A stretch of 64,000 nucleotides of DNA from Candidatus Ornithoclostridium faecigallinarum (GTDB lineage Bacteria > Bacillota > Clostridia > Christensenellales > UBA3700), in the NCBI GenBank assembly GCA_018713665.1, contig DVOI01000040.1, positions 1,324-65,323 on the forward strand. Direction: 5' to 3'. A model generated the notes under the pieces. The model had not been told where the DNA came from. It made no database searches and saw nothing but the letters and a program-made list of their open reading frames with translations. Of this stretch, positions 1,867-52,473 are shown piece by piece. Made by a program: the position numbers and the translations under genes. Numbering within the stretch: position 1 is the stretch's first letter; the number at the start of each line of letters is the position of its first letter.

Positions 1867-2748
1867 TCACTCTTCCGCCGAGCCCTTCCCTTTCGGCGCG
1901 TCGGTCGCAGGCTGTTGCGCCGCTTCGCGCGTTTCGGTTTTTGGCTCTTCCGAATTTGACCGCTCATCCGATTTCTGCTCTTCCGCGTTCTTATCTTTCG
2001 ATTTCGGGACGTCTTGCGGCGATTGCCGCTGCGCCGCGTCGTTTGTTTGACCGACCGCTTCGCCCTCGGACGCGTCGTCGCCCTTTTTCACTTTTTTCTT
2101 GCGCGGTTCGGCGTGCTTTTTGGCGTCGCCTTCAAGCGTGGTATAAATTTCGTCGCGTGACGAAAAATCGAGGTCGCCCTTGCCTGCCGCCTCTTTCGCC
2201 TTTTGCTTGCGCGCGAGCTTCTCCTCTTTGGTCAGCATAAATTTCGCCCAACCGTCCGGCGAAGGTTCACTCTCGGCATAGCTGTCTATGATCGCGAGCA
2301 TGCGCTCGACCTCTCTGTCTATCTCCGCGCAATCGACGTCGCCGCCCTTGGCGAGGGCGATTGCCGTCAAGCCGTAATATACGACGCCCATCGCATGCTT
2401 TGACGTGTGTACGGTGGACACCGCCTGAGCGACCGCGCGAGCCGCCGCGCACGCGACGGGGCTGTACGCCGCCCTTGCCGCGGAATGCGCTGCCAAGATT
2501 TTGACGCGCGCCTCAGGCATCTTGATCGTACCCTTCGCCCAAAGTGCGCCCGCTCCGTAGGCGACGCGCACCTTGTCGCTTCGCTTCTCTTCGGCGAGTT
2601 CGTACAATTTGACATACTTGCCGGCGATCGCGTAAGCCGCCGCCGCGGCGCCGCGCCTGCCGCACTTGGCAAACGCCTCGGCTACTTTCGCGACTCGCGG
2701 ATCGGACGCGGAAAACAAGATCTTCTTTTTGGTCTTTTTCTCTTTCAC
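1867..2748 (-). CDS. Hypothetical protein: Ala-rich helical domain (Imm5-like by recollection) plus a Lys/Glu-rich disordered C-terminal tail
   Basis: In-frame part of ORF 1867-2988. The start is taken as the GTG at 2748, which forms a GTGA overlap with the deoC stop. The upstream part of the long ORF overlaps deoC and is discarded. The segment KMPEARVKILAAHSAARAAYSPVACAAARAVAQAVSTVHTSKHAMGVVYYGLTAIA fits the AHxAAR...AAxAxxQAxxTxHxxxHA pattern. The tail is KKHAEPRKKKVKKGDD...KSKDKNAEEQK. Confidence 0.6.
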   Translation of the reverse strand: MKEKKTKKKILFSASDPRVAKVAEAFAKCGRRGAAAAAYAIAGKYVKLYELAEEKRSDKVRVAYGAGALWAKGTIKMPEARVKILAAHSAARAAYSPVACAAARAVAQAVSTVHTSKHAMGVVYYGLTAIALAKGGDVDCAEIDREVERMLAIIDSYAESEPSPDGWAKFMLTKEEKLARKQKAKEAAGKGDLDFSSRDEIYTTLEGDAKKHAEPRKKKVKKGDDASEGEAVGQTNDAAQRQSPQDVPKSKDKNAEEQKSDERSNSEEPKTETREAAQQPATDAPKGKGSAEE

Positions 2749-3365
2749 AATTTTGCGCTGGCGCCTATCCTGGTCGCGCCTGCCTCGATGAATGCGCGCG
2801 CCGTCTCGGCGTCGCGAATGCCGCCTGCGGCTTTGATGCCGAGGTCGCCGCAATTTGCCTTGATGATCTCGACCGCGTGCAGCGTCGCGCCCGCCTTTGA
2901 AAAGCCCGTACTCGTCTTGACGATGTCCGCGCCGGAGCGCACGCATATCTTCGTCGCCTCGGCGATCTGCTCGTCGGTGAGCAGACACTCTTCGATGATG
3001 ACTTTGAGCGTGACTCCGCAGGCGTGCTTGACCGCGGCGATGTCCTTCGCGACATAGTCAAAGTCGCCGCCTTTGAGCGCGCCGACCGCCATCACCATAT
3101 CGATTTCGTCAGCGCCGTCCTCGACCGCCTTGGCAGCCTCGAAAGCCTTGACTTCGGTTGCCGACGCACCGAGCGGAAAGCCGACGACGCACGCGACGCC
3201 CACTCCGCTGCCGCGCAGCAGCTGCCTGCAAAGCGCAACATACGCGCCGTTTACGCACACGTTGGCATAGCCGCGTTCCTTCGCGATCTTGCACAATTCC
3301 TCAATGTCGGCGCGGGTCGCGTCCGGTTTGAGATTGGTAAAGTCTATGTATTGTTCGAGTTGCAT
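2745..3365 (-). CDS. deoC: Deoxyribose-phosphate aldolase
   Basis: Full-length DeoC-like 206 aa with FPLGASATEVK, DEIDMV and the Schiff-base Lys context IVKTSTGF. Confidence 0.93.
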   Translation of the reverse strand: MQLEQYIDFTNLKPDATRADIEELCKIAKERGYANVCVNGAYVALCRQLLRGSGVGVACVVGFPLGASATEVKAFEAAKAVEDGADEIDMVMAVGALKGGDFDYVAKDIAAVKHACGVTLKVIIEECLLTDEQIAEATKICVRSGADIVKTSTGFSKAGATLHAVEIIKANCGDLGIKAAGGIRDAETARAFIEAGATRIGASAKL

Positions 3366-10873: not shown

Positions 10874-13381
10874 TCACGCCTCCGCTTCGTAACCTGCGTC
10901 CTCGATCGCCTTGACTATGTCTGCAAGCGCAACCTCGCCGCTCAAAGTGACGACGGCAGCGGCGGCGTCCTTGTCCGCCTTGCAATCCGCGACGCCCGGC
11001 AAAGCCTTGACGGCGTCCGCGACGTGCTTTTCGCAATGGGCGCACATCATGCCCTTGACCTTGACTGTAATCGTTTTCATCTCTTCCTCCTCCGCGACGG
11101 GGCATGCGTTGCAGGCGCATGCGGCGCGGTTTTGCGTATCTTTGATTATACTTGTTTTTTCCGCGTTTTTCAACCGTTTGGGCTTGAACAAACTCAATCT
11201 CAGCGCATTGAGCACGACGCTGACCGACGACAGGCTCATCGCGAGCGCCGCAATCATCGGATCGAGCAGCGGACCGCCCAGCGCATAGACGACGCCGGCG
11301 GCGAACGGTATGCCCAAGATGTTGTAGATGAACGCCCAAAACAGGTTCTCCTTGATGTTGCGCACGGTCGCCCTGCCGAGCTCGATTGCATACGCCGCGC
11401 CGCAGACGTCGCCGCCGACAAGCACTACGTCCGCGCTCTCGACCGCGATGTCGCTGCCCTCGCCTATCGCTATGCCCACATCCGCGCTCGTCAACGCCGG
11501 CGCGTCGTTGATGCCGTCACCGACCATCGCGACCTTTGCGCCGCCCTTTATCAACTCGGTCACCTTGTCCGCCTTGTCGCCCGGCAGCACCTCGGCGATC
11601 GTCTCGTCTATCCCCGCCTCGCGCGCGATCGCACGCGCCGTCGCGGCGTTGTCGCCGGTCAGCATGATCGTCTTGACGTGCCCGGCGCGCAAGTCCTCGA
11701 TCAATTCCTTTGCGCCTCTCTTCAAACCGTCGGCGAGCGAAACGACGCCGATCGCCCTGCCGTCGTATGCGGCGGCGACCACGCTCGCCCCGTCCGCGTA
11801 GGCGCGCTCCAAAGCCGCCCTTATCGGCGCGATGTCCACGCCCTCGCTCTCCAAAAACGCCTGCTTGCCGCAAATCAAAGTCTTGCCGTCGACGACAGCC
11901 TTCATGCCGTGTCCTCCTACGTTCTCCGCGCTGTCCGCAACGCGCACTTTCGCGCCGCTCGCGTCCGCATATTCGGTCACCGCCCTGGCGAGCGGATGCG
12001 CGCTCAAACGCTCGGCTGACGCACACAGACTCAAAAATTCGCTCTCGTCGCCGACGGCGAAGACCTCTTTGATTTTGGGTATGCCTTCGGTCACCGTGCC
12101 CGTCTTGTCGAGCACGACGGTGTCGATGTGAGCGCAACGCTCCAACGCCTCCGCACTCTTAAACAATATGCCTATCTTCGCGCCCGCGCCGCTGCCGGTG
12201 ATGATCGCCGTCGGGGTCGCAAGCCCGAGCGCGCACGGGCACGCGATCGTCAATACGGAAACGAACACCTTGATGACGAACGCGCTGTCCTCGCCGACCG
12301 CCGCCCACACTATCGCCGCGAGCACCGCGACCGCCATGACGGACGGGACAAAGACCTTGCTGACCTTGTCGGCGAGTTTGGCGATGGGCGCCTTGCTGTT
12401 CTGCGCGCTCTCGACCAGCTTGATTATCTTGCTGAGCATTGTGTCCGCCCCGACCGACGTCGCGCGGAATTTGAGCGTCCCGTCCCCGTTGACGGTACCG
12501 CCGATCACGCGGTCGCCGACCGTCTTGTCGACGGGCAGGCTCTCGCCTGTCAGCATACTTTCTTGCACCGCGCTCTCGCCCTCTATGACCTCGCCGTCAC
12601 AGCAAAAGCTCTCGCCCGCTCTGACCAGCACGATGTCGCCTGCGACGACCTCCTGTGCGTCCACCTTGACGAAATCGCCGTCCCGTAGCACCGTCGCCTC
12701 TTTGGGCGCGAGCATAGTCAATTTGGAGATCGCCTCGCCCGTCTTGGCGAGCGCGCGGTGTTCGAGATATTTCCCGAGCGAGATCAGCGCGAGTATCACC
12801 GCCGCCGACTCGAAATAGAGGTTGTGCACCGCGTGCGCGTCGCCCATACAGACGAGCGCGAAACCGTATACGCTGTACGCAAACGCCGCGGTCGTGCTGA
12901 GCGCGACGAGCGAATCCATGTTGGGATCGAGACGGAACAGATTGCGATATCCGCGAAAATAGATTTGATAGCTGACAGCCATCACGGGCACGCACAGGCA
13001 GATCTGCACGACCGCGAACACGACCGGATTGCCGTCCGGCGAGATCGCGTCCGGATAGGGCACGCCAATCATCGGCAGCATCGCCCAAAGCAACAATGCG
13101 AGCCCCAAAACGATGCGGACGATCGCGAACACAAGGTCGCGGTCGACCTTGACCGCCGCCCTCTTTTCCTCGGCAAACTCGGCGGCATATCCCGCCTTTT
13201 GGACGGCTTGCGCAAGTGCGGCGACATCCACCTTGGACTCGTCGTACTCGACGACCGCCTTGCCGCTGGCGAAGTTGACGTCCGCCCTGCTCACCCCGTC
13301 GAGTTTGAGCAACGCGCGCTGACAGCTCGCGCTGCACACGACGCAGCTCATGCCCTTGATGTTGAAAATTATGCTCTTCAT
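10874..13381 (-). CDS. copA: Copper-translocating P1B-type ATPase with an N-terminal and an extra C-terminal HMA domain
   Basis: N-terminal GMSCVVC, then CPC ([11 protein letters not shown]), DKTGT and GDGINDAP. The C-terminal 70 aa form a CopZ-like domain ([14 protein letters not shown]) after [11 protein letters not shown]. Confidence 0.92.
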
Positions 13382-48003: not shown

Positions 48004-49827
48004 TCACGGATGAAAATGCTTATACACCGCCTGCGCCGCCGGCAAGTTCATCCCTTTGACCGCGGCGAGCTGTTCGACGCTCGCGCTCTTGATCGCGGCG
48101 ACCGTGCCGAAATGCTTGTAGAGTGCTTTGACCCTGCCCTCGCCCACGCCGGGGACGGACAGCAATTCGCTGACGGTCTGCGACTTTTTGCGCAGCTGAC
48201 GGTGGAACGTGATTGCAAAACGGTGCGCCTCGTCGCGTATGCGCTGCAAAAGTTTGAGCGCATAGCTGTTTCGCGGCAAAATGACCGGCTCGCTTTGCCC
48301 GGGCAAAAACACCTCTTCTTCCCGCTTGGCGAGGCTGATGAATGGGATGTCCGTGACGCCGAGCGCGGTCACGATCTCCATGACCGAAGACAGCTGTCCC
48401 TTGCCTCCGTCGATGACGATGAGGTCGGGACGCGCGCCGAGGCTGTCATCCTCGCTGCCCTCTTTGAGCTCGGTCAGCCGCCTTGTCAGCGTCTCCTGCA
48501 AAGAGGCGAAATCGTCGTTGCCCTCGACGGTCTTGATGCGGAATTTGCGATATGCCGCCTTGTCGGGTTCGCCGTTGGTGAACACGACCATCGACGCGAC
48601 CTTGTTCGTGCCGCTGATGTGTGAGATGTCATAGCACTCCATGCGCGCCGGCATGCGTTCGAGATGCAGATATTCCGCCAATTGCATCACCGCGCCAATC
48701 GTCATGTTGTCCTGCCTCTCCTTGATTGAAAGCGACTTTTCGAGATAGTCGCGCGCGTTGGACGACGCCATGTCGCACAGCTGCCGCCTCACTCCCTGGC
48801 GAGGGGTGATGACGTTGATCTTTTTGCCGAATTTTTCGGACAGATATTGTTGCAAGACGTCCGCGTCCTCGATGTCAACGGACAACACCGCCTCGTCGGG
48901 CGCGAGTACGTCGCCGTCATAAAAGCGCATCACAAAATTGGACAAAGTGATCGCGTCGCTCAAGCCGTAATCGTTGACGACGAATTTGTCGCCGCCGACC
49001 ACCTTGCCTGCGCGGACAAACAGCAGCGCGACGACGGTATTGAGCCCGTTGCTCTCAATCGCGAACACGTCGAGGTCGAAATCTTTGGGAAGCGCGCCGA
49101 CCTGCCTGCGGACGAGCTTGTCGAGCACCTGCAATTTTTGCCTGTAATTGAGCGCAAGCTCATACTCTTCCCTCTCCGCCGCCTCGTTCATCTTGTCGGT
49201 CAGCAGCTTGGCGACCGACTTGTCGTTGCCGGACAAAAAGGCTATCACCTCTTTGATGATGGCGCCGTACTCCTCTTTGGTTATCTTGCCGGCGCAGGGT
49301 GCGTAGCAGCGCTTGATGTGATAGTTGAGGCACGGACGATGTCCCGCCGGGACGCGCTTCATGTCCAGCTTGCAGTCTCGCAGACAAAACGCGCTGTTGA
49401 TGAGGTCGGTGATCTCCTTCGCCGTGATGCCGATCATGTACGGACCGAAATATTTGGACCCGTCGCTCTTCAGCTTGCGCACGACCTCGACGCGCGGAAA
49501 GTCCGCCTTGACGTCAATCTTGACAAAGGGATAGCTCTTGTCGTCTTTGAGCAAAATGTTGTAGGGCGGCTTGTGCTTTTTGATGAGATTGTTCTCGAGC
49601 ACGAGCGCCTCGACTTCGCTCCGCGTGATGATGTATTTGATGTCGTCGACTTTGGCGACAAGTTTGAGCACCTTTTCGGTGCGGTTTGCCTTGTTGCCGA
49701 AATATTGATGCACGCGCTTGAACAGATCTTTCGCCTTGCCGACGTACAAGATCTGTCCGCTCGCTCCGTACATGATGTAGACGCCGCTGCTGTGCGGCAA
49801 ATCTTTGAGTATCGACGCTATGTCCAT
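48004..49827 (-). CDS. uvrC: Excinuclease ABC subunit C
   Basis: GIY-YIG (SGVYIMYGASGQILYVGKAKDL), a UvrBC-interaction region, an endonuclease domain and a C-terminal (HhH)2. Confidence 0.95.
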   Translation of the reverse strand: MDIASILKDLPHSSGVYIMYGASGQILYVGKAKDLFKRVHQYFGNKANRTEKVLKLVAKVDDIKYIITRSEVEALVLENNLIKKHKPPYNILLKDDKSYPFVKIDVKADFPRVEVVRKLKSDGSKYFGPYMIGITAKEITDLINSAFCLRDCKLDMKRVPAGHRPCLNYHIKRCYAPCAGKITKEEYGAIIKEVIAFLSGNDKSVAKLLTDKMNEAAEREEYELALNYRQKLQVLDKLVRRQVGALPKDFDLDVFAIESNGLNTVVALLFVRAGKVVGGDKFVVNDYGLSDAITLSNFVMRFYDGDVLAPDEAVLSVDIEDADVLQQYLSEKFGKKINVITPRQGVRRQLCDMASSNARDYLEKSLSIKERQDNMTIGAVMQLAEYLHLERMPARMECYDISHISGTNKVASMVVFTNGEPDKAAYRKFRIKTVEGNDDFASLQETLTRRLTELKEGSEDDSLGARPDLIVIDGGKGQLSSVMEIVTALGVTDIPFISLAKREEEVFLPGQSEPVILPRNSYALKLLQRIRDEAHRFAITFHRQLRKKSQTVSELLSVPGVGEGRVKALYKHFGTVAAIKSASVEQLAAVKGMNLPAAQAVYKHFHP

Positions 49828-49869
49828 ACCGAAATGATACCACAATCGCGCGCGTTTTGCAAGCGCAAG

Positions 49870-50220
49870 CTATCTGCGCCGCAACCGCCTCGCCCCGGTC
49901 AGCATCACCTCTGAAACGTACGGATCGACGATTGTGTAGAGCGTCAGCCGACCCGCTCTTCTCGACGCGACGATGCCTGCGTCCTTGAGCAGGCGCAATT
50001 GATGGGACACCGTGCTTTGCTCGCTCGCCAGAAAAAAGCAAAGATCGGCGACGCAGAGATCTTTCATCGACAGCGCGGACAAGATCTTGAGCCTCGTCTC
50101 GTCCGAAAACACCGCAAAAAATCTCGCTATGCCGCCAAGCGAGCGGCTCGGCGGCATGCTCTCCAAAATGTTGCGCTCCTGACGCTCATCCACCGTCAAA
50201 CAGCCTCTGTACATAGTCAT
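49870..50220 (-). CDS. ArsR/SmtB-family metalloregulatory transcription factor
   Basis: FAVFSDETRLKILSAL...DLCVADLC...STVSHQLRLLKDAGIV is a winged HTH with a partial alpha3 Cys site (compare ELCVCDL). Confidence 0.85.
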   Translation of the reverse strand: MTMYRGCLTVDERQERNILESMPPSRSLGGIARFFAVFSDETRLKILSALSMKDLCVADLCFFLASEQSTVSHQLRLLKDAGIVASRRAGRLTLYTIVDPYVSEVMLTGARRLRRR

Positions 50221-50355
50221 AGCAAACTCCTTGCGCGCGGACCGAATTGCATAACCGCGTCCGCATACGCGTCGTCATATGAGCATATTATATAGCGACC
50301 GATGCGGCGCAAAGTGGCGCGTTGAGTCGAAATTTAGCTTTTTTCGGAGGACAAG

Positions 50356-50529
50356 ATGAACTCAAACTTTTTGCTGTTGCTGCTGCTCGCGATGAACAAC
50401 AACGGCGGCGGTCAGACCAACTCGTGCGATCCGCTGTCTCTGATCTTCTGCTGCCTGTCGTTCGCCAACTGTCTCGGCTGCCGCGCCGCCGACATAGGTC
50501 AAAGCGTTTGTCCGGGGCAAAACAATTGA
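50356..50529 (+). CDS. Unannotated small ORF: 57-aa hydrophobic, six-cysteine peptide
   Basis: Below the ORF-track size cutoff. SD GGAGGA lies 5 nt upstream of the ATG. Sequence MNSNFLLLLLLAMNNNGGGQTNSCDPLSLIFCCLSFANCLGCRAADIGQSVCPGQNN. GC3-rich codons; the stop lies a few nt upstream of a strong terminator. Confidence 0.6.
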   Translation: MNSNFLLLLLLAMNNNGGGQTNSCDPLSLIFCCLSFANCLGCRAADIGQSVCPGQNN

Positions 50530-50530
50530 C

Positions 50531-50563
50531 AAAAGGACGCACCGAAAGGCGCGTCCCTTTTTT
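50531..50563. terminator. Bidirectional rho-independent terminator shared by the two convergent mini-ORFs
   Basis: aaaa-ggacgcacc-gaaa-ggcgcgtcc-cttttttt. Confidence 0.8.
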
Positions 50564-50693
50564 AGGCGTACCATCCGCACGGATTCATCCAATAGGGGTA
50601 CGTCCACATACAATTGCAGGCGCGAGTCGAAGCGTTGCAGCACGGCGGACTGTCGCACGGCAACATATATCCGTATTGACTGTACAAGTACAC
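50562..50693 (-). CDS. Unannotated small ORF: ~43-aa Cys/Tyr/Trp/Pro-rich peptide
   Basis: C-terminal part of ORF 50562-50822. SD GAGGAGG lies 7 nt upstream of the GTG at 50693. Alternative starts are 50696 and the ATG at 50666. Sequence (V/M)YLYSQYGYMLPCDSPPCCNASTRACNCMWTYPYWMNPCGWYA. The stop abuts the shared terminator. Confidence 0.5.
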   Translation of the reverse strand: MYLYSQYGYMLPCDSPPCCNASTRACNCMWTYPYWMNPCGWYA

Positions 50694-50777
50694 CACCTCA
50701 CCTCCTCGTTGAAATCGATGATGTAACCCACGCCCCGTTATCATGATATGCACGCAAATACGGATGCGTTCACCACA

Positions 50778-50808
50778 CAAAATGCGGCGGAGTGGCAAAC
50801 TCCGCCGC
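50778..50808 (-). terminator. Rho-independent terminator of spoIVA
   Basis: On the reverse strand, stem GCGGCGGAGT/ACTCCGCCGC is followed by ATTTTG. Confidence 0.7.
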
Positions 50809-50868
50809 GCGATTAGTATCAATTATTTTCAATTAGTATTAATTATTTTATAGACAATAGTACCGCCG

Positions 50869-52347
50869 TCACAACAATATACACAGCACTCCGCCCCTGC
50901 CTTCGTTGACGATGCGCGTCACTGTCTTGCGCAGCTTCGCTCTCGCCTCTTCGGGCATCGACGACAGCTTGCCGGTCAAGCCGTCGCGCGCAAGCACGTT
51001 GAGCGACTTGCCGAGCATGTTGGTCTGCCATATCCCCTCGGTGTCGTCCCCGAACGTGTCCAGCCAATCCTTGACCATATCCTCATCCTGCGCCTCGGTG
51101 CCGAGAATGGGATTGACCTCTGTCTCGACGTCGACTTTGAGAATGTGGTATGACGGCGCGCTCGCCCTCATCTTTATGCCGAATCGCGAGCCCTTGTGGA
51201 CGATCTCGGGACGCTCAAACTCCATATCTTCGAGTTCGGGCGCGGTCACACCGTAGCCGTAGTTGTCCGCGTCCTCGATCGCCGCGGCGAGCTTGTCGTA
51301 ACGGCGCTTCGCCTCGCTCATCTCGCGGATTGCACCGACCAGCTTAAATTCGTCGCCTATGTCCACCCCGCATTGACGCGACAGCACGCGATAGAACAAG
51401 TCCTTTTTGGGGCACACGTCGAGCACTATCCTTCCCTTTGCGTAGTCCGCTTCAATGCCCGACAGCTTTTCGATGTCGCCGCTGTCGTCGAACATGGACG
51501 AAAAGACGCTGTAATCTGCCATCACGTTCGCCTTTGCCGCATATCCTGCGACGCGCGCCGTGATGTCGGCGATGATCGGATCGTCCGCAGGCAGCGCCCT
51601 CAGCCAATCGGGCAGTTTCGCTCCGACCGACTCTATCGGGAACGCTCCGAGCACGCATTCTATGATTGCGACAAGCGCGTCTCTGTCCATATGCGCGACG
51701 TTTTGAATAACTACGGGGACGTTGTAGACGCCGCGCATCGCCTCGGCGAGCTTTTTGGTCTCGGCGTCACGTTCGTGCCGCGTGTTGAGCACGATGACGT
51801 ACGGCTTGCCTATCGCGGCGAGTTCCGCCGCCACGCGGCGTTCGGCGTCGACGTATTCGGCGCGCGGCGCTTCGGTGACGCTGCCATCGCTGGTCACCAA
51901 AATTCCGATCGTCGAGTGGTCGCGGATCACCTTGCGCGTGCCCGTCTCCGCCGCCTCGTCGAACGGCATCTTTTCTTCGCTCCACGGCGTATCGACCATC
52001 CTTGTCTTGCCGTCGCCGTCCGCCGTCGCCGCCGACGGAATCATATATCCGACGCAATCGATCAGTCTGACGTTCGCCTTTTTGCCGTCGCCGAGATCGA
52101 TTGTCTCGCCGCCGTCGGGCACAAACTTGGGCTGCGTGGTCATCACAGCCTTGCCGTCCGCCGACTGCGGCAGCTCGTCCGTGACGCGCTTGCGGCGGTG
52201 TTTGTCCTCGATACCGTCGAGCAATGCAAGCTCGGCAAACTTTTTGATGAAGGTCGACTTGCCCGTCCTCACGGGCCCGACCACTCCTATATAGATGTCG
52301 CCGCCCGTCCTCTCGGCGATGTCCTTGTATAAATCGAATTGCTGCAT
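50869..52347 (-). CDS. spoIVA: Stage IV sporulation protein A (spore coat morphogenetic ATPase)
   Basis: MQQFDLYKDIAERTGGDIYIGVVGPVRTGKSTFIKKF (Walker A) and 492 aa, collinear with SpoIVA. Upstream GCATATT-N18-CATATAT resembles a sigma-E promoter. Confidence 0.95.
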   Translation of the reverse strand: MQQFDLYKDIAERTGGDIYIGVVGPVRTGKSTFIKKFAELALLDGIEDKHRRKRVTDELPQSADGKAVMTTQPKFVPDGGETIDLGDGKKANVRLIDCVGYMIPSAATADGDGKTRMVDTPWSEEKMPFDEAAETGTRKVIRDHSTIGILVTSDGSVTEAPRAEYVDAERRVAAELAAIGKPYVIVLNTRHERDAETKKLAEAMRGVYNVPVVIQNVAHMDRDALVAIIECVLGAFPIESVGAKLPDWLRALPADDPIIADITARVAGYAAKANVMADYSVFSSMFDDSGDIEKLSGIEADYAKGRIVLDVCPKKDLFYRVLSRQCGVDIGDEFKLVGAIREMSEAKRRYDKLAAAIEDADNYGYGVTAPELEDMEFERPEIVHKGSRFGIKMRASAPSYHILKVDVETEVNPILGTEAQDEDMVKDWLDTFGDDTEGIWQTNMLGKSLNVLARDGLTGKLSSMPEEARAKLRKTVTRIVNEGRGGVLCILL

Positions 52348-52473
52348 GGTTACCTCCGGGGCTTTGTTCGATATATGATATTCGCCGCCGCAGCGAATAT
52401 GCCGAAGCGGTCGGATATTTCGGCGACAAAAAACGGCTCCGCCTTCGCGAAGCCGCCGTTTTGCCGCTCGGAT

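What the first reader, a model, noticed from the sequence alone, without database searches (positions are those of the whole stretch)
49870..50693. ArsR-family regulator divergent from an unannotated six-Cys 57-aa peptide, plus a convergent paralogous six-Cys 43-aa peptide
**The two mini-ORFs.** Both are too short for, or hidden within, the ORF track.
- Peptide 1 (50356-50529, +) has SD GGAGGA and reads MNSNFLLLLLLAMNNNGGGQTNSCDPLSLIFCCLSFANCLGCRAADIGQSVCPGQNN.
- Peptide 2 (50562-50693, -) has SD GAGGAGG and reads (V/M)YLYSQYGYMLPCDSPPCCNASTRACNCMWTYPYWMNPCGWYA.
- They converge on one bidirectional terminator.

**Shared cysteine framework.**
- Peptide 1 has the spacing C-x7-CC-x5-C-x2-C-x9-C.
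- Peptide 2 has the spacing C-x4-CC-x6-C-x1-C-x10-C.
- Both open with C-D-(S)-P, which suggests a small paralogous family.

**Genomic context.** Peptide 1 is divergently transcribed from an ArsR/SmtB regulator that carries a partial alpha3 thiolate site (DLCVADLC). This layout echoes the cyanobacterial smtB/smtA pair, in which an ArsR-family repressor lies beside a small Cys-rich metallothionein. The pair also lies directly downstream of spoIVA. Both peptide genes have CATA-type -10 boxes upstream (CATATTATA for peptide 1, CATATCATG for peptide 2), reminiscent of mother-cell sigma-E/sigma-K promoters.

**Competing readings.**
- The locus could be a metal(loid)-responsive Cys-peptide system.
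- The peptides could be disulfide-crosslinked spore coat or crust peptides.
- They could be RiPP-like precursors whose maturase lies elsewhere.

None of these is established by the sequence.
Basis: partly seen in the sequence, partly recalled or inferred. Interest (0 to 1): 0.7.

Follow-up and report, generated by a model that had tools for sequence, protein, structure and literature searches.

The report
Two conserved cysteine-rich microproteins beside spoIVA
Two tiny cysteine-rich protein genes (57 and 43 aa) between the spore-coat gene spoIVA and an ArsR-type regulator are real, selected genes found only in one clade of uncultured gut Christensenellaceae; they match no known family, and their role (most likely in the spore envelope) is inferred, not shown.

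Summary
Both mini-ORFs sit at the stated coordinates, with strong Shine-Dalgarno sites, the stated Cys spacings, a shared hairpin between their stop codons, a divergent ArsR gene and spoIVA upstream.

Both ORFs recur in all 15 syntenic loci fetched, from Christensenellaceae MAGs and metagenomes including Ca. Ornithoclostridium. The frame and all six Cys are kept. pN/pS is 0.03-0.34 for pep1 and 0.17-0.5 for pep2 in all pairs but one (0.95, window vs L003). GC3 matches real genes. They are coding genes.

No homologue exists outside this clade: Pfam, NCBIfam, 5.8 billion and 1.84 billion protein libraries, PDB and plasmids gave nothing.

Paralogy of the two peptides is not supported at residue level (hhalign probability 0.4%). 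Only the Cys spacing is alike.

The metallothionein reading fits poorly. The RiPP reading has no local support, since the 64 kb window holds no maturase or C39 exporter.

My best guess (confidence about 0.35) is mother-cell-expressed spore-envelope microproteins. Peptide 1 has a canonical sigma-E-like promoter in a 37-bp near-invariant block. That block also carries a TATAAT for arsR and an imperfect palindrome, so ArsR control is a live rival. Ordinary-to-moderate interest.

The parts
49870..50220 (-). ArsR/SmtB-family regulator, 116 aa. Cys7, Cys55 and Cys60 (DLC-V-A-DLC) are conserved and there is no alpha5 site. The gene ends 24 nt before uvrC and is probably co-transcribed with it.
   Evidence: The best solved relatives are SmtB, Lmo1102 and CadC. 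Cys conservation is seen.
50263..50299 (.). Near-invariant 37-bp control block, GCATACGCGTCGTCATATGAGCATATTATATAGCGAC. On the + strand it reads as a sigma-E-like promoter: -35 GCATACG at 50263-50269, a 14-nt spacer, then -10 CATATTAT at 50284-50291. On the - strand it carries a perfect TATAAT at 50292-50287 for arsR. An imperfect 12-5-12 inverted repeat at 50271-50299 is a candidate ArsR operator.
   Evidence: 28 of 37 columns are invariant across 6 lineages, against 0 of 42 and 15 of 46 in the flanking stretches.
50296..50329 (+). Predicted stem-loop in the 5' leader of peptide 1. Its significance is unclear.
   Evidence: The fold is -20.3 kcal/mol with z = -2.0. The stem is kept in relatives, but only 1 of 12 pairs shows a compensatory change.
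50346..50350 (+). Shine-Dalgarno GGAGG of peptide 1, 5 nt before the ATG.
   Evidence: Read from the sequence and the alignment.
50356..50529 (+). Peptide 1, 57 aa with six Cys (C24, C32, C33, C39, C42, C52). The N-terminus is a Leu-run (FLLLLLLAM). The core, residues 22-43 (NSCDPLSLIFCCLSFANCLGCR), is unchanged in nearly all variants.
   Evidence: Sequence and homologues are. pN/pS is 0.03-0.34. GC3 is 0.76.
50535..50556 (.). G+C-rich hairpin between the two convergent stop codons. It is a terminator-like structure usable from both strands.
   Evidence: Fold result and sequence. It is present in the window-like lineages only.
50562..50693 (-). Peptide 2, 43 aa with six Cys (C13, C18, C19, C26, C28, C39) and 10 aromatic residues. 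The conserved motif is LPC-x-SP-x-CCN-x-ST-x2-C-x-C-x4-PY-x2-NPCGWY. The loop after CxC is hypervariable. Two lineages have eight Cys.
   Evidence: Sequence, start and homologues are. pN/pS is 0.17-0.5 for most pairs. GC3 is 0.70.
50701..50705 (-). Shine-Dalgarno GGAGG of peptide 2 (within GAGGAGGTGAGG), 7 nt before the start codon.
   Evidence: Read from the sequence and alignments.
50743..50769 (-). Sigma-K-like promoter candidate for peptide 2: AC, a 17-nt spacer, then CATATCAT(GA).
   Evidence: The motif is located. In one search the AC and the -10 box are kept while the spacer varies in most lineages. The motif is absent in the Ornithoclostridium lineage and deleted in L004.
50784..50808 (-). 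Intrinsic terminator of spoIVA. It makes peptide 2 a separate transcription unit.
   Evidence: Terminator scan; the perfect 10-nt inverted repeat is.
50869..52347 (-). spoIVA, the spore-coat basement-layer ATPase. It is context for the peptide genes.
   Evidence: Family matches.

Best explanation
Peptide 1 and peptide 2 are two unrelated, or only anciently related, lineage-specific cysteine-rich microproteins of a spore-forming Christensenellaceae clade. Each is its own monocistronic unit.

My proposed model has five steps.
1. They are made in the mother cell during sporulation. Peptide 1 would come from a sigma-E-type promoter and peptide 2 from a sigma-K-type promoter.
2. They need no signal peptide, because the spore coat assembles in the mother-cell cytoplasm.
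3. They become part of the spore envelope that is built on SpoIVA.
4. The very hydrophobic, highly constrained peptide 1 would sit at or in the outer forespore membrane or the basement layer. The aromatic, Pro- and Cys-rich peptide 2, with its hypervariable loop, would be a surface-exposed coat component.
5. Their thiols would form intra- or intermolecular disulfides once the spore meets oxidant.

Shown: the genes are real, are under purifying selection and are confined to this clade. Their Cys are invariant, and the promoter-like blocks are conserved.

Inferred: the sigma-factor assignment, the timing of expression, the location in the spore and the disulfide chemistry. The ArsR protein may add thiol- or metal-responsive control to peptide 1 through the shared control block. 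That does not conflict with this model.
For: **The genes are real**
- Synteny, reading frame and Cys are kept in 15 loci.
- pN/pS is well below 1 for all pairs but one.
- GC3 matches real genes.

**Peptide 1 promoter**
- GCATACG-N14-CATATTAT matches the sigma-E consensus. That consensus is kmATATT-N14-CATACAhT in B. subtilis (my own knowledge). In C. difficile it has 'ATA' at -35 and a shared CATA-type -10 (PMC3789822).
- The -35 variants seen in relatives (GAATACG, GCATATG) stay within the consensus, while spacer positions vary.
- The block has 28 of 37 invariant columns, although synonymous sites are near saturation.
- GCATA-N14-20-CATAT occurs only twice in the 64 kb window. The other copy is directly upstream of spoIVA. 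The expected count is 0.17.

**Peptide 2 promoter**
- AC-N17-CATATCATGA is kept with a variable spacer in most lineages. This fits sigma-K, which has 'AC' at -35 and a -10 such as CATATAAT (PMC3789822).

**Composition and variation**
- Neither peptide has a basic N-region or a lipobox, so neither looks Sec-secreted.
- Peptide 2 is 14% Cys, 23% aromatic and 12% Pro. Tyr- and Cys-rich composition is typical of coat proteins (my own knowledge; CdeC/CdeM in PMC6101409).
- In two lineages peptide 2 gains Cys as a pair, going from 6 to 8. That is what disulfide partners would do.
- One loop residue of peptide 2 is M, V, K or T among otherwise nearly identical strains, and the four-residue loop differs in every lineage. 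This suggests surface exposure.
- Restriction to one clade is typical of fast-evolving coat proteins.
- The locus abuts spoIVA in every genome.
Against: - There are no expression or proteomic data.
- Pattern matches alone are weak. The sigma-E-like pattern has 7 hits in the window against 2.2 expected. The two other hits whose context I checked do not precede plausible sporulation genes. The sigma-K-like pattern has 12 hits against 8.9 expected.
- The spoIVA upstream block has a non-canonical 20-nt ATA-to-CATA spacing, so it does not calibrate the motif.
- The conserved block upstream of peptide 1 can be explained equally well as the arsR(-uvrC) promoter, with TATAAT on the other strand, plus an ArsR operator.
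- The peptide 2 motif is missing in the Ornithoclostridium lineage.
- Adjacency to spoIVA is conserved only inside one clade with complete synteny, so it counts as a single observation.
- AlphaFold models are unusable, with pLDDT of 48-51.
Confidence: 0.35

Rival explanations
1. ArsR-controlled thiol peptide. The ArsR protein would be a thiol-based sensor of a soft metal(loid) or of oxidants or persulfides, using Cys7, Cys55 and Cys60. It would repress the compact bidirectional control region and so co-regulate arsR-uvrC and peptide 1. Peptide 1 would be a small membrane-associated Cys protein that binds or buffers the inducer. Peptide 2 might be unrelated to this circuit.
For: - The divergent arrangement has only 110-135 bp between the two start codons. 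The arsR promoter must therefore lie in the same conserved block.
- A perfect, invariant TATAAT sits on the arsR strand, overlapping the -10 of peptide 1.
- An imperfect AT-rich 12-5-12 inverted repeat (9 of 12) at 50271-50299 stays at 8-9 of 12 in the two other lineages I compared by eye. It includes the 8-bp palindrome TCATATGA.
- More positions are conserved than two promoter hexamers would need.
- The ArsR aligns best with the metal sensors SmtB, Lmo1102/CadC and NmtR.
- It keeps an alpha3N-like trio of Cys in every homologue.
- Peptide 1 has a vicinal CC pair inside a hydrophobic stretch.
Against: - Peptide 1 is not metallothionein-like. It has a low Cys density and no His, and its non-Cys core residues are invariant.
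- No efflux pump, reductase or other resistance gene is linked. The only co-transcribed gene is uvrC.
- Metal-resistance modules are usually widespread and mobile. This one is confined to a single clade at a fixed core-genome position.
- The operator is a weak palindrome and no binding was tested.
- No -35 element could be found for the arsR-strand TATAAT.
Confidence: 0.2
2. Precursors of exported, post-translationally modified or disulfide-bonded peptides, such as a RiPP, a bacteriocin or a signal. The maturase and exporter would lie elsewhere in the genome. The Leu-rich N-terminus of peptide 1, ending in GGG, would act as a leader.
For: - The peptides have the size and Cys content of such precursors.
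- In peptide 1 the conserved N-terminal 17 residues and the core are separated by a variable linker that contains Gly-Gly.
- Peptide 2 has a hypervariable loop and a rapidly changing N-terminus, as seen in antagonistic or signalling peptides.
- Distribution is restricted to one clade.
Against: - Neither peptide matches any NCBIfam or Pfam precursor family, SCIFF and the other Cys-rich clostridial families included.
- The Pfam survey of the window's larger ORFs found no radical-SAM, lanthipeptide synthetase, YcaO or C39-peptidase transporter. The one ABC transporter seen has no peptidase domain. The genes called within 6 kb in the relatives show the same absence.
- Peptide 2 has only about 10 residues ahead of its first Cys, which is too short for a usual leader.
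- The leader of peptide 1 lacks the hydrophobic/acidic pattern of double-glycine leaders (my own knowledge).
- The locus sits in a conserved core-genome position between housekeeping genes.
- The core of peptide 1 is far more conserved than RiPP cores usually are.
Confidence: 0.1
3. Chance ORFs in the untranslated regions of neighbouring genes, or non-coding conserved DNA.
For: - The ORFs are short, the genome is G+C-rich with many spurious ORFs, and longer ORFs overlap them.
Against: - Substitutions fall at synonymous sites, and the frame, start, stop and Shine-Dalgarno site are kept across lineages whose pS reaches 0.6-0.9.
- GC3 is 0.70-0.76, against 0.41-0.57 for the overlapping ORFs.
- The indels seen are in-frame.
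Confidence: 0.02

Closest known systems
SmtB/SmtA of Synechococcus (an ArsR-family repressor divergent from a small metallothionein)
   Same: An ArsR/SmtB-family gene is divergently transcribed from a small Cys-containing ORF across a short shared control region. SmtB is the best solved-structure match of this ArsR (E = 1e-13).
   Different: Peptide 1 is hydrophobic, has 6 Cys in 57 aa and no His, and matches no metallothionein model. The ArsR lacks the alpha5 His/Asp site that SmtB uses for Zn. It keeps only Cys7, Cys55, Asp58 and Cys60. There is a second, unlinked peptide gene, and uvrC lies downstream of arsR.
CadC (pI258) and Lmo1102, which are alpha3N thiolate metal sensors
   Same: The ArsR has an N-terminal arm Cys followed by an acidic stretch (C-LTV-DERQER against CadC's C-Y-DEEKV), plus a Cys in the alpha3 'ELCVCDL' position (the CadC sequence is from my own knowledge).
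   Different: The CVC motif is CVA here, with a further Cys three residues later. That gives three Cys per monomer, not four. No cadA-type pump is adjacent. The CopA-like ATPase of the window is 37 kb away.
SpoVM and CmpA of Bacillus subtilis (small sigma-E-dependent mother-cell proteins that work with SpoIVA; PMC10730256)
   Same: They are microproteins. Peptide 1 has a sigma-E-like promoter and a hydrophobic N-terminus, and its gene lies near spoIVA (one gene, peptide 2, in between).
   Different: There is no sequence similarity and no Pfam hit. SpoVM is a basic amphipathic helix without Cys. Neither B. subtilis gene is linked to spoIVA (my own knowledge). An interaction with SpoIVA has not been tested here.
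Cysteine-rich spore surface proteins CotY/CotZ (B. subtilis) and CdeC/CdeM (C. difficile; PMC6101409)
   Same: They are Cys-rich, are expressed late in the mother cell and are thought to be cross-linked by disulfides. They are lineage-specific and evolve fast. Peptide 2 has a sigma-K-like promoter and a Cys-, Tyr- and Pro-rich composition.
   Different: Those proteins are several times larger (my own knowledge) and share no detectable homology with either peptide.
SCIFF (six cysteines in forty-five residues), a ranthipeptide precursor of Clostridia
   Same: It has six Cys in a peptide of about 45 residues from a member of the Clostridia.
   Different: Neither peptide matches any NCBIfam model at E <= 1. 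I assume from my own knowledge that this library includes the SCIFF model; I did not check. No adjacent radical-SAM maturase exists. The Cys spacing differs (my own knowledge of SCIFF).

Membership tests
ArsR/SmtB metalloregulators | A winged-helix HTH_5 domain that scores above the curated cutoffs | tested here: met
   NF033788 scores 78.2 bits against a cutoff of 55, and PF01022 scores 53.1 against 22.
ArsR/SmtB metalloregulators | A complete alpha3 (CVC) or alpha3N thiolate site | tested here: inconclusive
   The motif is C55-V-A57-D-L-C60, plus Cys7 in the N-terminal arm. All three Cys are invariant in the homologues. The central Cys of CVC is missing.
ArsR/SmtB metalloregulators | An alpha5 His/Asp/Glu site, as in SmtB and CzrA | tested here: not met
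   The C-terminal helix, TIVDPYVSEVMLTGARRLRRR, has no His.
Bacterial metallothionein (SmtA/BmtA type) | A match to the family model, high Cys density with His ligands, and few hydrophobic or aromatic residues | tested here: not met
   There is no Pfam or NCBIfam hit at E <= 1. Cys content is 10.5% and 14%. Peptide 1 has a KD-9 hydropathy maximum of 3.26, and peptide 2 has 10 aromatic residues in 43.
Bacterial metallothionein (SmtA/BmtA type) | A gene next to, and controlled by, an ArsR/SmtB repressor | tested here: inconclusive
   Adjacency holds for peptide 1 in all loci. Control by the ArsR cannot be tested with these tools.
Radical-SAM-modified Cys-rich RiPP precursors (SCIFF and other clostridial classes) | A match to a precursor family model | tested here: not met
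   Neither peptide matches any family in NCBIfam or Pfam.
Radical-SAM-modified Cys-rich RiPP precursors (SCIFF and other clostridial classes) | A maturase or exporter gene in the neighbourhood | tested here: not met
   None was found among the ORFs surveyed in the 64 kb window, nor among the genes called within 6 kb in the relatives. The rest of the genome was not searchable.
Mother-cell (sigma-E / sigma-K) regulon genes | A promoter with -35 ATA (sigma-E) or AC (sigma-K) and a CATA-type -10 at canonical spacing | tested here: met
   Peptide 1 has GCATACG-N14-CATATTAT, and peptide 2 has AC-N17-CATATCAT. The first is conserved in all lineages and the second in most. The consensus comes from PMC3789822. 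The bare pattern is not statistically rare.
Mother-cell (sigma-E / sigma-K) regulon genes | Transcription that depends on sigE or sigK during sporulation | not testable with these tools
   This needs RNA-seq or reporter fusions.
SpoVM/CmpA-type SpoIVA partners | Sequence homology to SpoVM or CmpA | tested here: not met
   There is no Pfam hit at E <= 1.
A paralogous family that comprises peptide 1 and peptide 2 | Detectable residue-level similarity between the two profiles | tested here: not met
   hhalign gives a probability of 0.4% and E = 0.16 over 5 columns. Neither HMM finds the other ORF. Only the Cys gap vectors are alike, with 0.5% of shuffles as close.

The most novel reading that the evidence does not exclude
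Peptide 1 and peptide 2 are previously unrecognised spore-morphogenetic microproteins that act on the SpoIVA basement layer, as functional analogues of SpoVM and CmpA in a Christensenellaceae clade. Peptide 1 would be under dual control: a mother-cell sigma factor and a thiol-sensing ArsR repressor that shares its promoter. Envelope assembly, and uvrC expression with it, would then be coupled to the redox or metal state of the sporulating cell.
Probability: 0.08. Interest if true: 0.6.

Novelty: new member of a known kind. Interest (0 to 1): 0.3.

Why it matters
Small proteins are routinely missed or left unnamed, and the sporulation machinery of uncultured gut Clostridia outside the model organisms is barely known.

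If these peptides are spore-envelope components, they would be clade-specific markers and building blocks of Christensenellaceae spores. That bears on how these health-associated gut bacteria survive oxygen and transmit between hosts.

If peptide 1 is instead an ArsR-controlled thiol peptide, it would be an unusual non-metallothionein partner for an ArsR/SmtB sensor. The sensor would also be oddly coupled to uvrC.

Either way the present evidence makes this a pair of well-supported orphan genes, not a new mechanism.

Tried and rejected
**Homologue searches that found nothing outside the clade**
- Word-indexed searches of 5.8 billion proteins with each peptide and with a peptide 2 profile.
- A full HMMER scan of 1.84 billion cluster representatives with a peptide 2 profile. 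The only extra hits were three long proteins. The two I read are repetitive, and their scores are sums over repeats.
- A DNA-level scan of metagenome contigs with a peptide 1 profile, which returned 3 loci from the same clade.
- A spoIVA-anchored scan of GTDB genomes, which returned only 3 loci.
- Sequence searches of the PDB, with best E-values of 0.5-0.8.
- tblastn against plasmids.
- Rfam on the locus, where the only hit was an implausible sub-threshold U4.

**Other analyses that led nowhere**
- AlphaFold2 on both peptides gave pLDDT of 50.7 and 48.5. That is too low for a fold search, so none was run.
- A six-frame HMM search for extra copies in the window and in all loci found none.
- A look for a third peptide gene in the longer spacers of L001 and L006 found none.
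- I tried to calibrate the sigma-E motif on the spoIVA promoter. The conserved block there has a spacing 4 nt longer than canonical, so it is not a usable standard.
- The two other sigma-E-like pattern hits whose context I checked lie at a terminator before an ilvN-like gene and 5 nt before an ATG. The bare pattern therefore has little predictive value.
- The stem-loop in the peptide 1 leader shows almost no covariation.

**Ideas considered and dropped**
- A type I toxin-antitoxin pair. Peptide 2 is itself a selected coding gene, and the transcripts could overlap only at the terminator.
- An AgrD-like autoinducer. Peptide 2 does end in Cys plus four residues, but there is no AgrB and no acidic tail.
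- A lipoprotein or a Sec-secreted protein. Neither peptide has a basic N-region or a lipobox.
- A DUF2892/YgaP-like ArsR partner. There is no Pfam hit.
Full report
**Observation**

The window comes from an uncultured Christensenellaceae bacterium. Its spoIVA is 98% identical to that of MAG chromosome OZ006985.1 and 77% identical to that of Candidatus Ornithoclostridium excrementipullorum.

The local gene order is as follows.
- uvrC, 48004-49845 (-)
- arsR, 49870-50220 (-)
- a 135-bp intergenic region
- peptide 1, 50356-50529 (+)
- a hairpin, 50535-50556
- peptide 2, 50562-50693 (-)
- the spoIVA terminator, 50784-50808 (-)
- spoIVA, 50869-52347 (-)

Each has a GGAGG Shine-Dalgarno site, 5 nt and 7 nt from its start codon. 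The Cys gap vectors are [7,0,5,2,9] and [4,0,6,1,10].

**Are they genes?**

Yes, on four lines of evidence.
- Protein searches found peptide 1 in six clusters and peptide 2 in four, all from the same clade.
- In the 15 syntenic loci retrieved (L001-L015), both ORFs are present in the same order. They keep the same start position (ATG in relatives, GTG in the window for peptide 2), the same Shine-Dalgarno site and all six Cys.
- Nei-Gojobori pN/pS is 0.03-0.34 for peptide 1, with pS up to 0.7. For peptide 2 it is 0.17-0.5 in all pairs but one. That pair, window vs L003, gives 0.95, and I attribute this to the window's divergent N-terminal decapeptide.
- GC3 is 0.76 and 0.70, like arsR, spoIVA and uvrC (0.74-0.79). 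The three longer ORFs that overlap the peptides have GC3 of 0.41-0.57 and are spurious.

**Anatomy of the peptides**

Peptide 1 is MNSN-FLLLLLLAM-NNNGGGQT-NSCDPLSLIFCCLSFANCLGCR-AADIGQSVCPGQNN.
- It has only three charged residues, and its N-terminus has none. It has no lipobox.
- A nine-residue Leu run gives a KD hydropathy of 3.26.
- A second hydrophobic stretch, residues 27-45, reaches 1.62, which is borderline for a membrane span.
- Across 18 sequence variants the core, residues 22-43, is unchanged apart from Phe31, which is Leu in the most distant lineage, and one variant (P0002) in which the CC pair is shifted by one residue. The linker (residues 14-21) and the tail vary.

Peptide 2 is M-[aromatic/Gly-rich, variable, about 10 aa]-LPC-x-SP-x-CCN-x-ST-x2-C-x-C-[4 variable]-PY-x2-NPCGWY-x.
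- The residue after CxC is M, V, K or T among otherwise near-identical strains.
- The four-residue loop differs in every lineage.
- Two lineages (L006-type and Ornithoclostridium) carry eight Cys. The two extra Cys appear together.

**Are the two peptides paralogues?**

- The profile-profile comparison gives a probability of 0.4%.
- Neither HMM detects the other ORF, and there are no further copies in the window or the loci.
- Only the Cys scaffold is similar. In a post hoc test, 0.5% of shuffled peptide 2 sequences have a gap vector as close to that of peptide 1.

An ancient duplication that kept only the scaffold cannot be excluded, but it is not shown.

**How wide is the family?**

Nothing was found outside this clade.
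- Pfam and NCBIfam gave nothing.
- The 1.84-billion-representative HMMER scan gave only spurious repetitive hits beyond the clade.
- The metagenome DNA scan, the PDB searches and the plasmid searches gave nothing new.

Peptide 1 is already called, without a name, in about 200 public contigs including NCBI nr. Peptide 2 is called less often, and one copy is named 'hypothetical protein'.

**Control regions**

Between arsR and peptide 1 lies a 37-bp block, 50263-50299. It has 28 of 37 invariant columns across six lineages. That is more conserved than the peptide 1 coding sequence (105 of 174). The flanking intergenic DNA has 0 of 42 and 15 of 46 invariant columns.

The block can be read in three ways.
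- On the + strand it reads GCATACG-N14-CATATTAT. This is the canonical spacing and core of a sigma-E promoter. The consensus is kmATATT-N14-CATACAhT in B. subtilis (my own knowledge). C. difficile has -35 ATA and a CATA-type -10 shared with sigma-K (PMC3789822). The -35 variants in relatives (GAATACG, GCATATG) stay within the consensus.
- On the - strand it holds a perfect TATAAT for arsR. The arsR promoter must lie within these 110-135 bp, but I could find no -35 element for it.
- It also contains an imperfect AT-rich 12-5-12 inverted repeat (9 of 12) at 50271-50299. This is a plausible operator for a dimeric ArsR.

The block is therefore probably a compact bidirectional control region. Its conservation cannot, on its own, decide between sigma-E control and ArsR control.

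Upstream of peptide 2, AC-N17-CATATCATGA is kept in most lineages while the spacer varies, which fits sigma-K. It is absent in the Ornithoclostridium lineage, which has a different CATA box nearer the Shine-Dalgarno site. It is deleted in one contig, L004.

As bare patterns these motifs are not rare. The sigma-E-like pattern has 7 hits against 2.2 expected, and the sigma-K-like pattern has 12 against 8.9. The two other sigma-E-like hits whose context I checked do not precede plausible sporulation genes. GCATA-N14-20-CATAT occurs only twice in 64 kb, upstream of peptide 1 and upstream of spoIVA. The spoIVA copy has a non-canonical spacing, however.

**The ArsR protein**

It is a clear ArsR/SmtB member and is closest to SmtB, Lmo1102/CadC and NmtR. 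It lacks alpha5 ligands. It keeps C55-V-A-D-L-C60 and an N-terminal Cys7 followed by an acidic stretch, as in the CadC arm. All three Cys are invariant in the homologues. This fits a thiol-based sensor of a soft metal(loid) or of oxidants. The gene ends 24 nt before uvrC with no terminator between them, so the two are probably co-transcribed.

**Context**

A Pfam survey of the window's larger ORFs found carbohydrate metabolism genes, a CopA-like ATPase, housekeeping genes and one ABC transporter without a peptidase domain. It found no radical-SAM, lanthipeptide, YcaO or C39 genes. The genes called within 6 kb in the relatives show the same picture.

**Interpretation**

The metallothionein analogy fails on composition and on the invariant hydrophobic core. 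The RiPP reading has no local support and fits the short N-terminus of peptide 2 poorly.

The most coherent reading is mother-cell-expressed spore-envelope microproteins. It rests on these points.
- There are no export signals.
- The composition is Cys-, Tyr- and Pro-rich.
- Extra Cys are gained as a pair.
- Peptide 2 has a hypervariable loop.
- Distribution is restricted to one clade.
- CATA-type promoter blocks are conserved.
- The genes sit beside spoIVA.

All of this is indirect, so I give it 0.35. ArsR-controlled thiol chemistry for peptide 1 is a serious rival at 0.2 and is not mutually exclusive with the main model. An exported or modified peptide gets 0.1. The remaining probability is for functions not yet imagined.

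**Verdict**

This is a pair of well-supported orphan microprotein genes with a suggestive but unproven link to sporulation, and it is of modest interest.

Noticed in passing
window 50812-50849 (the 3' UTR of spoIVA, between its stop codon and its terminator): An AT-rich direct repeat, ATTAGTATCAATTATTTT, occurs two to three times with a 10/20-nt register. It is present just after the spoIVA stop codon in most related lineages, although the surrounding DNA diverges (L006-type included; not visible in the Ornithoclostridium rows of that alignment). Its function is unknown. It could be a protein- or RNA-binding site.
   Followed up: partly
window 49846-49869 and 48004-49845: arsR ends 24 nt before uvrC with no terminator between them, and the pairing is kept in all relatives. 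An ArsR-type sensor co-transcribed with a nucleotide-excision-repair gene is unusual. A sigma-70-like site (TTGCAA-17-TATCAT with TG) at 49862-49834 may give uvrC its own promoter.
   Followed up: no
window about 50230-50262: A 27-nt G+C-rich insertion lies between the arsR start codon and the conserved block. It contains the inverted repeat GCGGAC...GTCCGC. It is present in the window and in L002-L005, and absent in L010, L011, the L006-type loci and the Ornithoclostridium lineage.
   Followed up: no
L004 (ERZ16268161 scaffold_6306), upstream of peptide 2: This contig lacks about 34 nt that include the CATATCATGA box of peptide 2. Its spoIVA gene is also called shorter (467 aa). This is either a natural promoter deletion or an assembly artefact.
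   Followed up: no
window 50296-50329 and 50323-50330: The 5' leader of peptide 1 can form a stem-loop (-20 kcal/mol) that is kept in relatives with little covariation. Just after it lies a conserved GTCGAAAT motif. In L011 this motif reads TGTCGAA, a perfect Spo0A-box consensus (my own knowledge), and the window has GAGTCGAA.
   Followed up: partly
protein P0002 (a 592-bp ENA contig): This peptide 1 variant has the vicinal Cys pair shifted by one residue (LICCWLSF instead of LIFCCLSF). It is the only break in the otherwise invariant core and may be a sequencing error.
   Followed up: no
window 52373-52402 (-), upstream of spoIVA: A strongly conserved block, GGCATA(T/A)(T/A)C-N-GGCGAATATCATATATCGAACAAAGCC, precedes spoIVA in all lineages. 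It has a perfect sigma-E-type -35 (GCATATT), but the CATAT box lies 18 nt after that heptamer instead of 14. There may be two overlapping promoters.
   Followed up: partly
window 10874-13381 (-) and 1867-2988 (-): The first ORF is a CopA-like P-type ATPase with two HMA domains. The second is a 373-aa protein with an Imm5-like putative immunity domain. Neither is linked to the finding.
   Followed up: no
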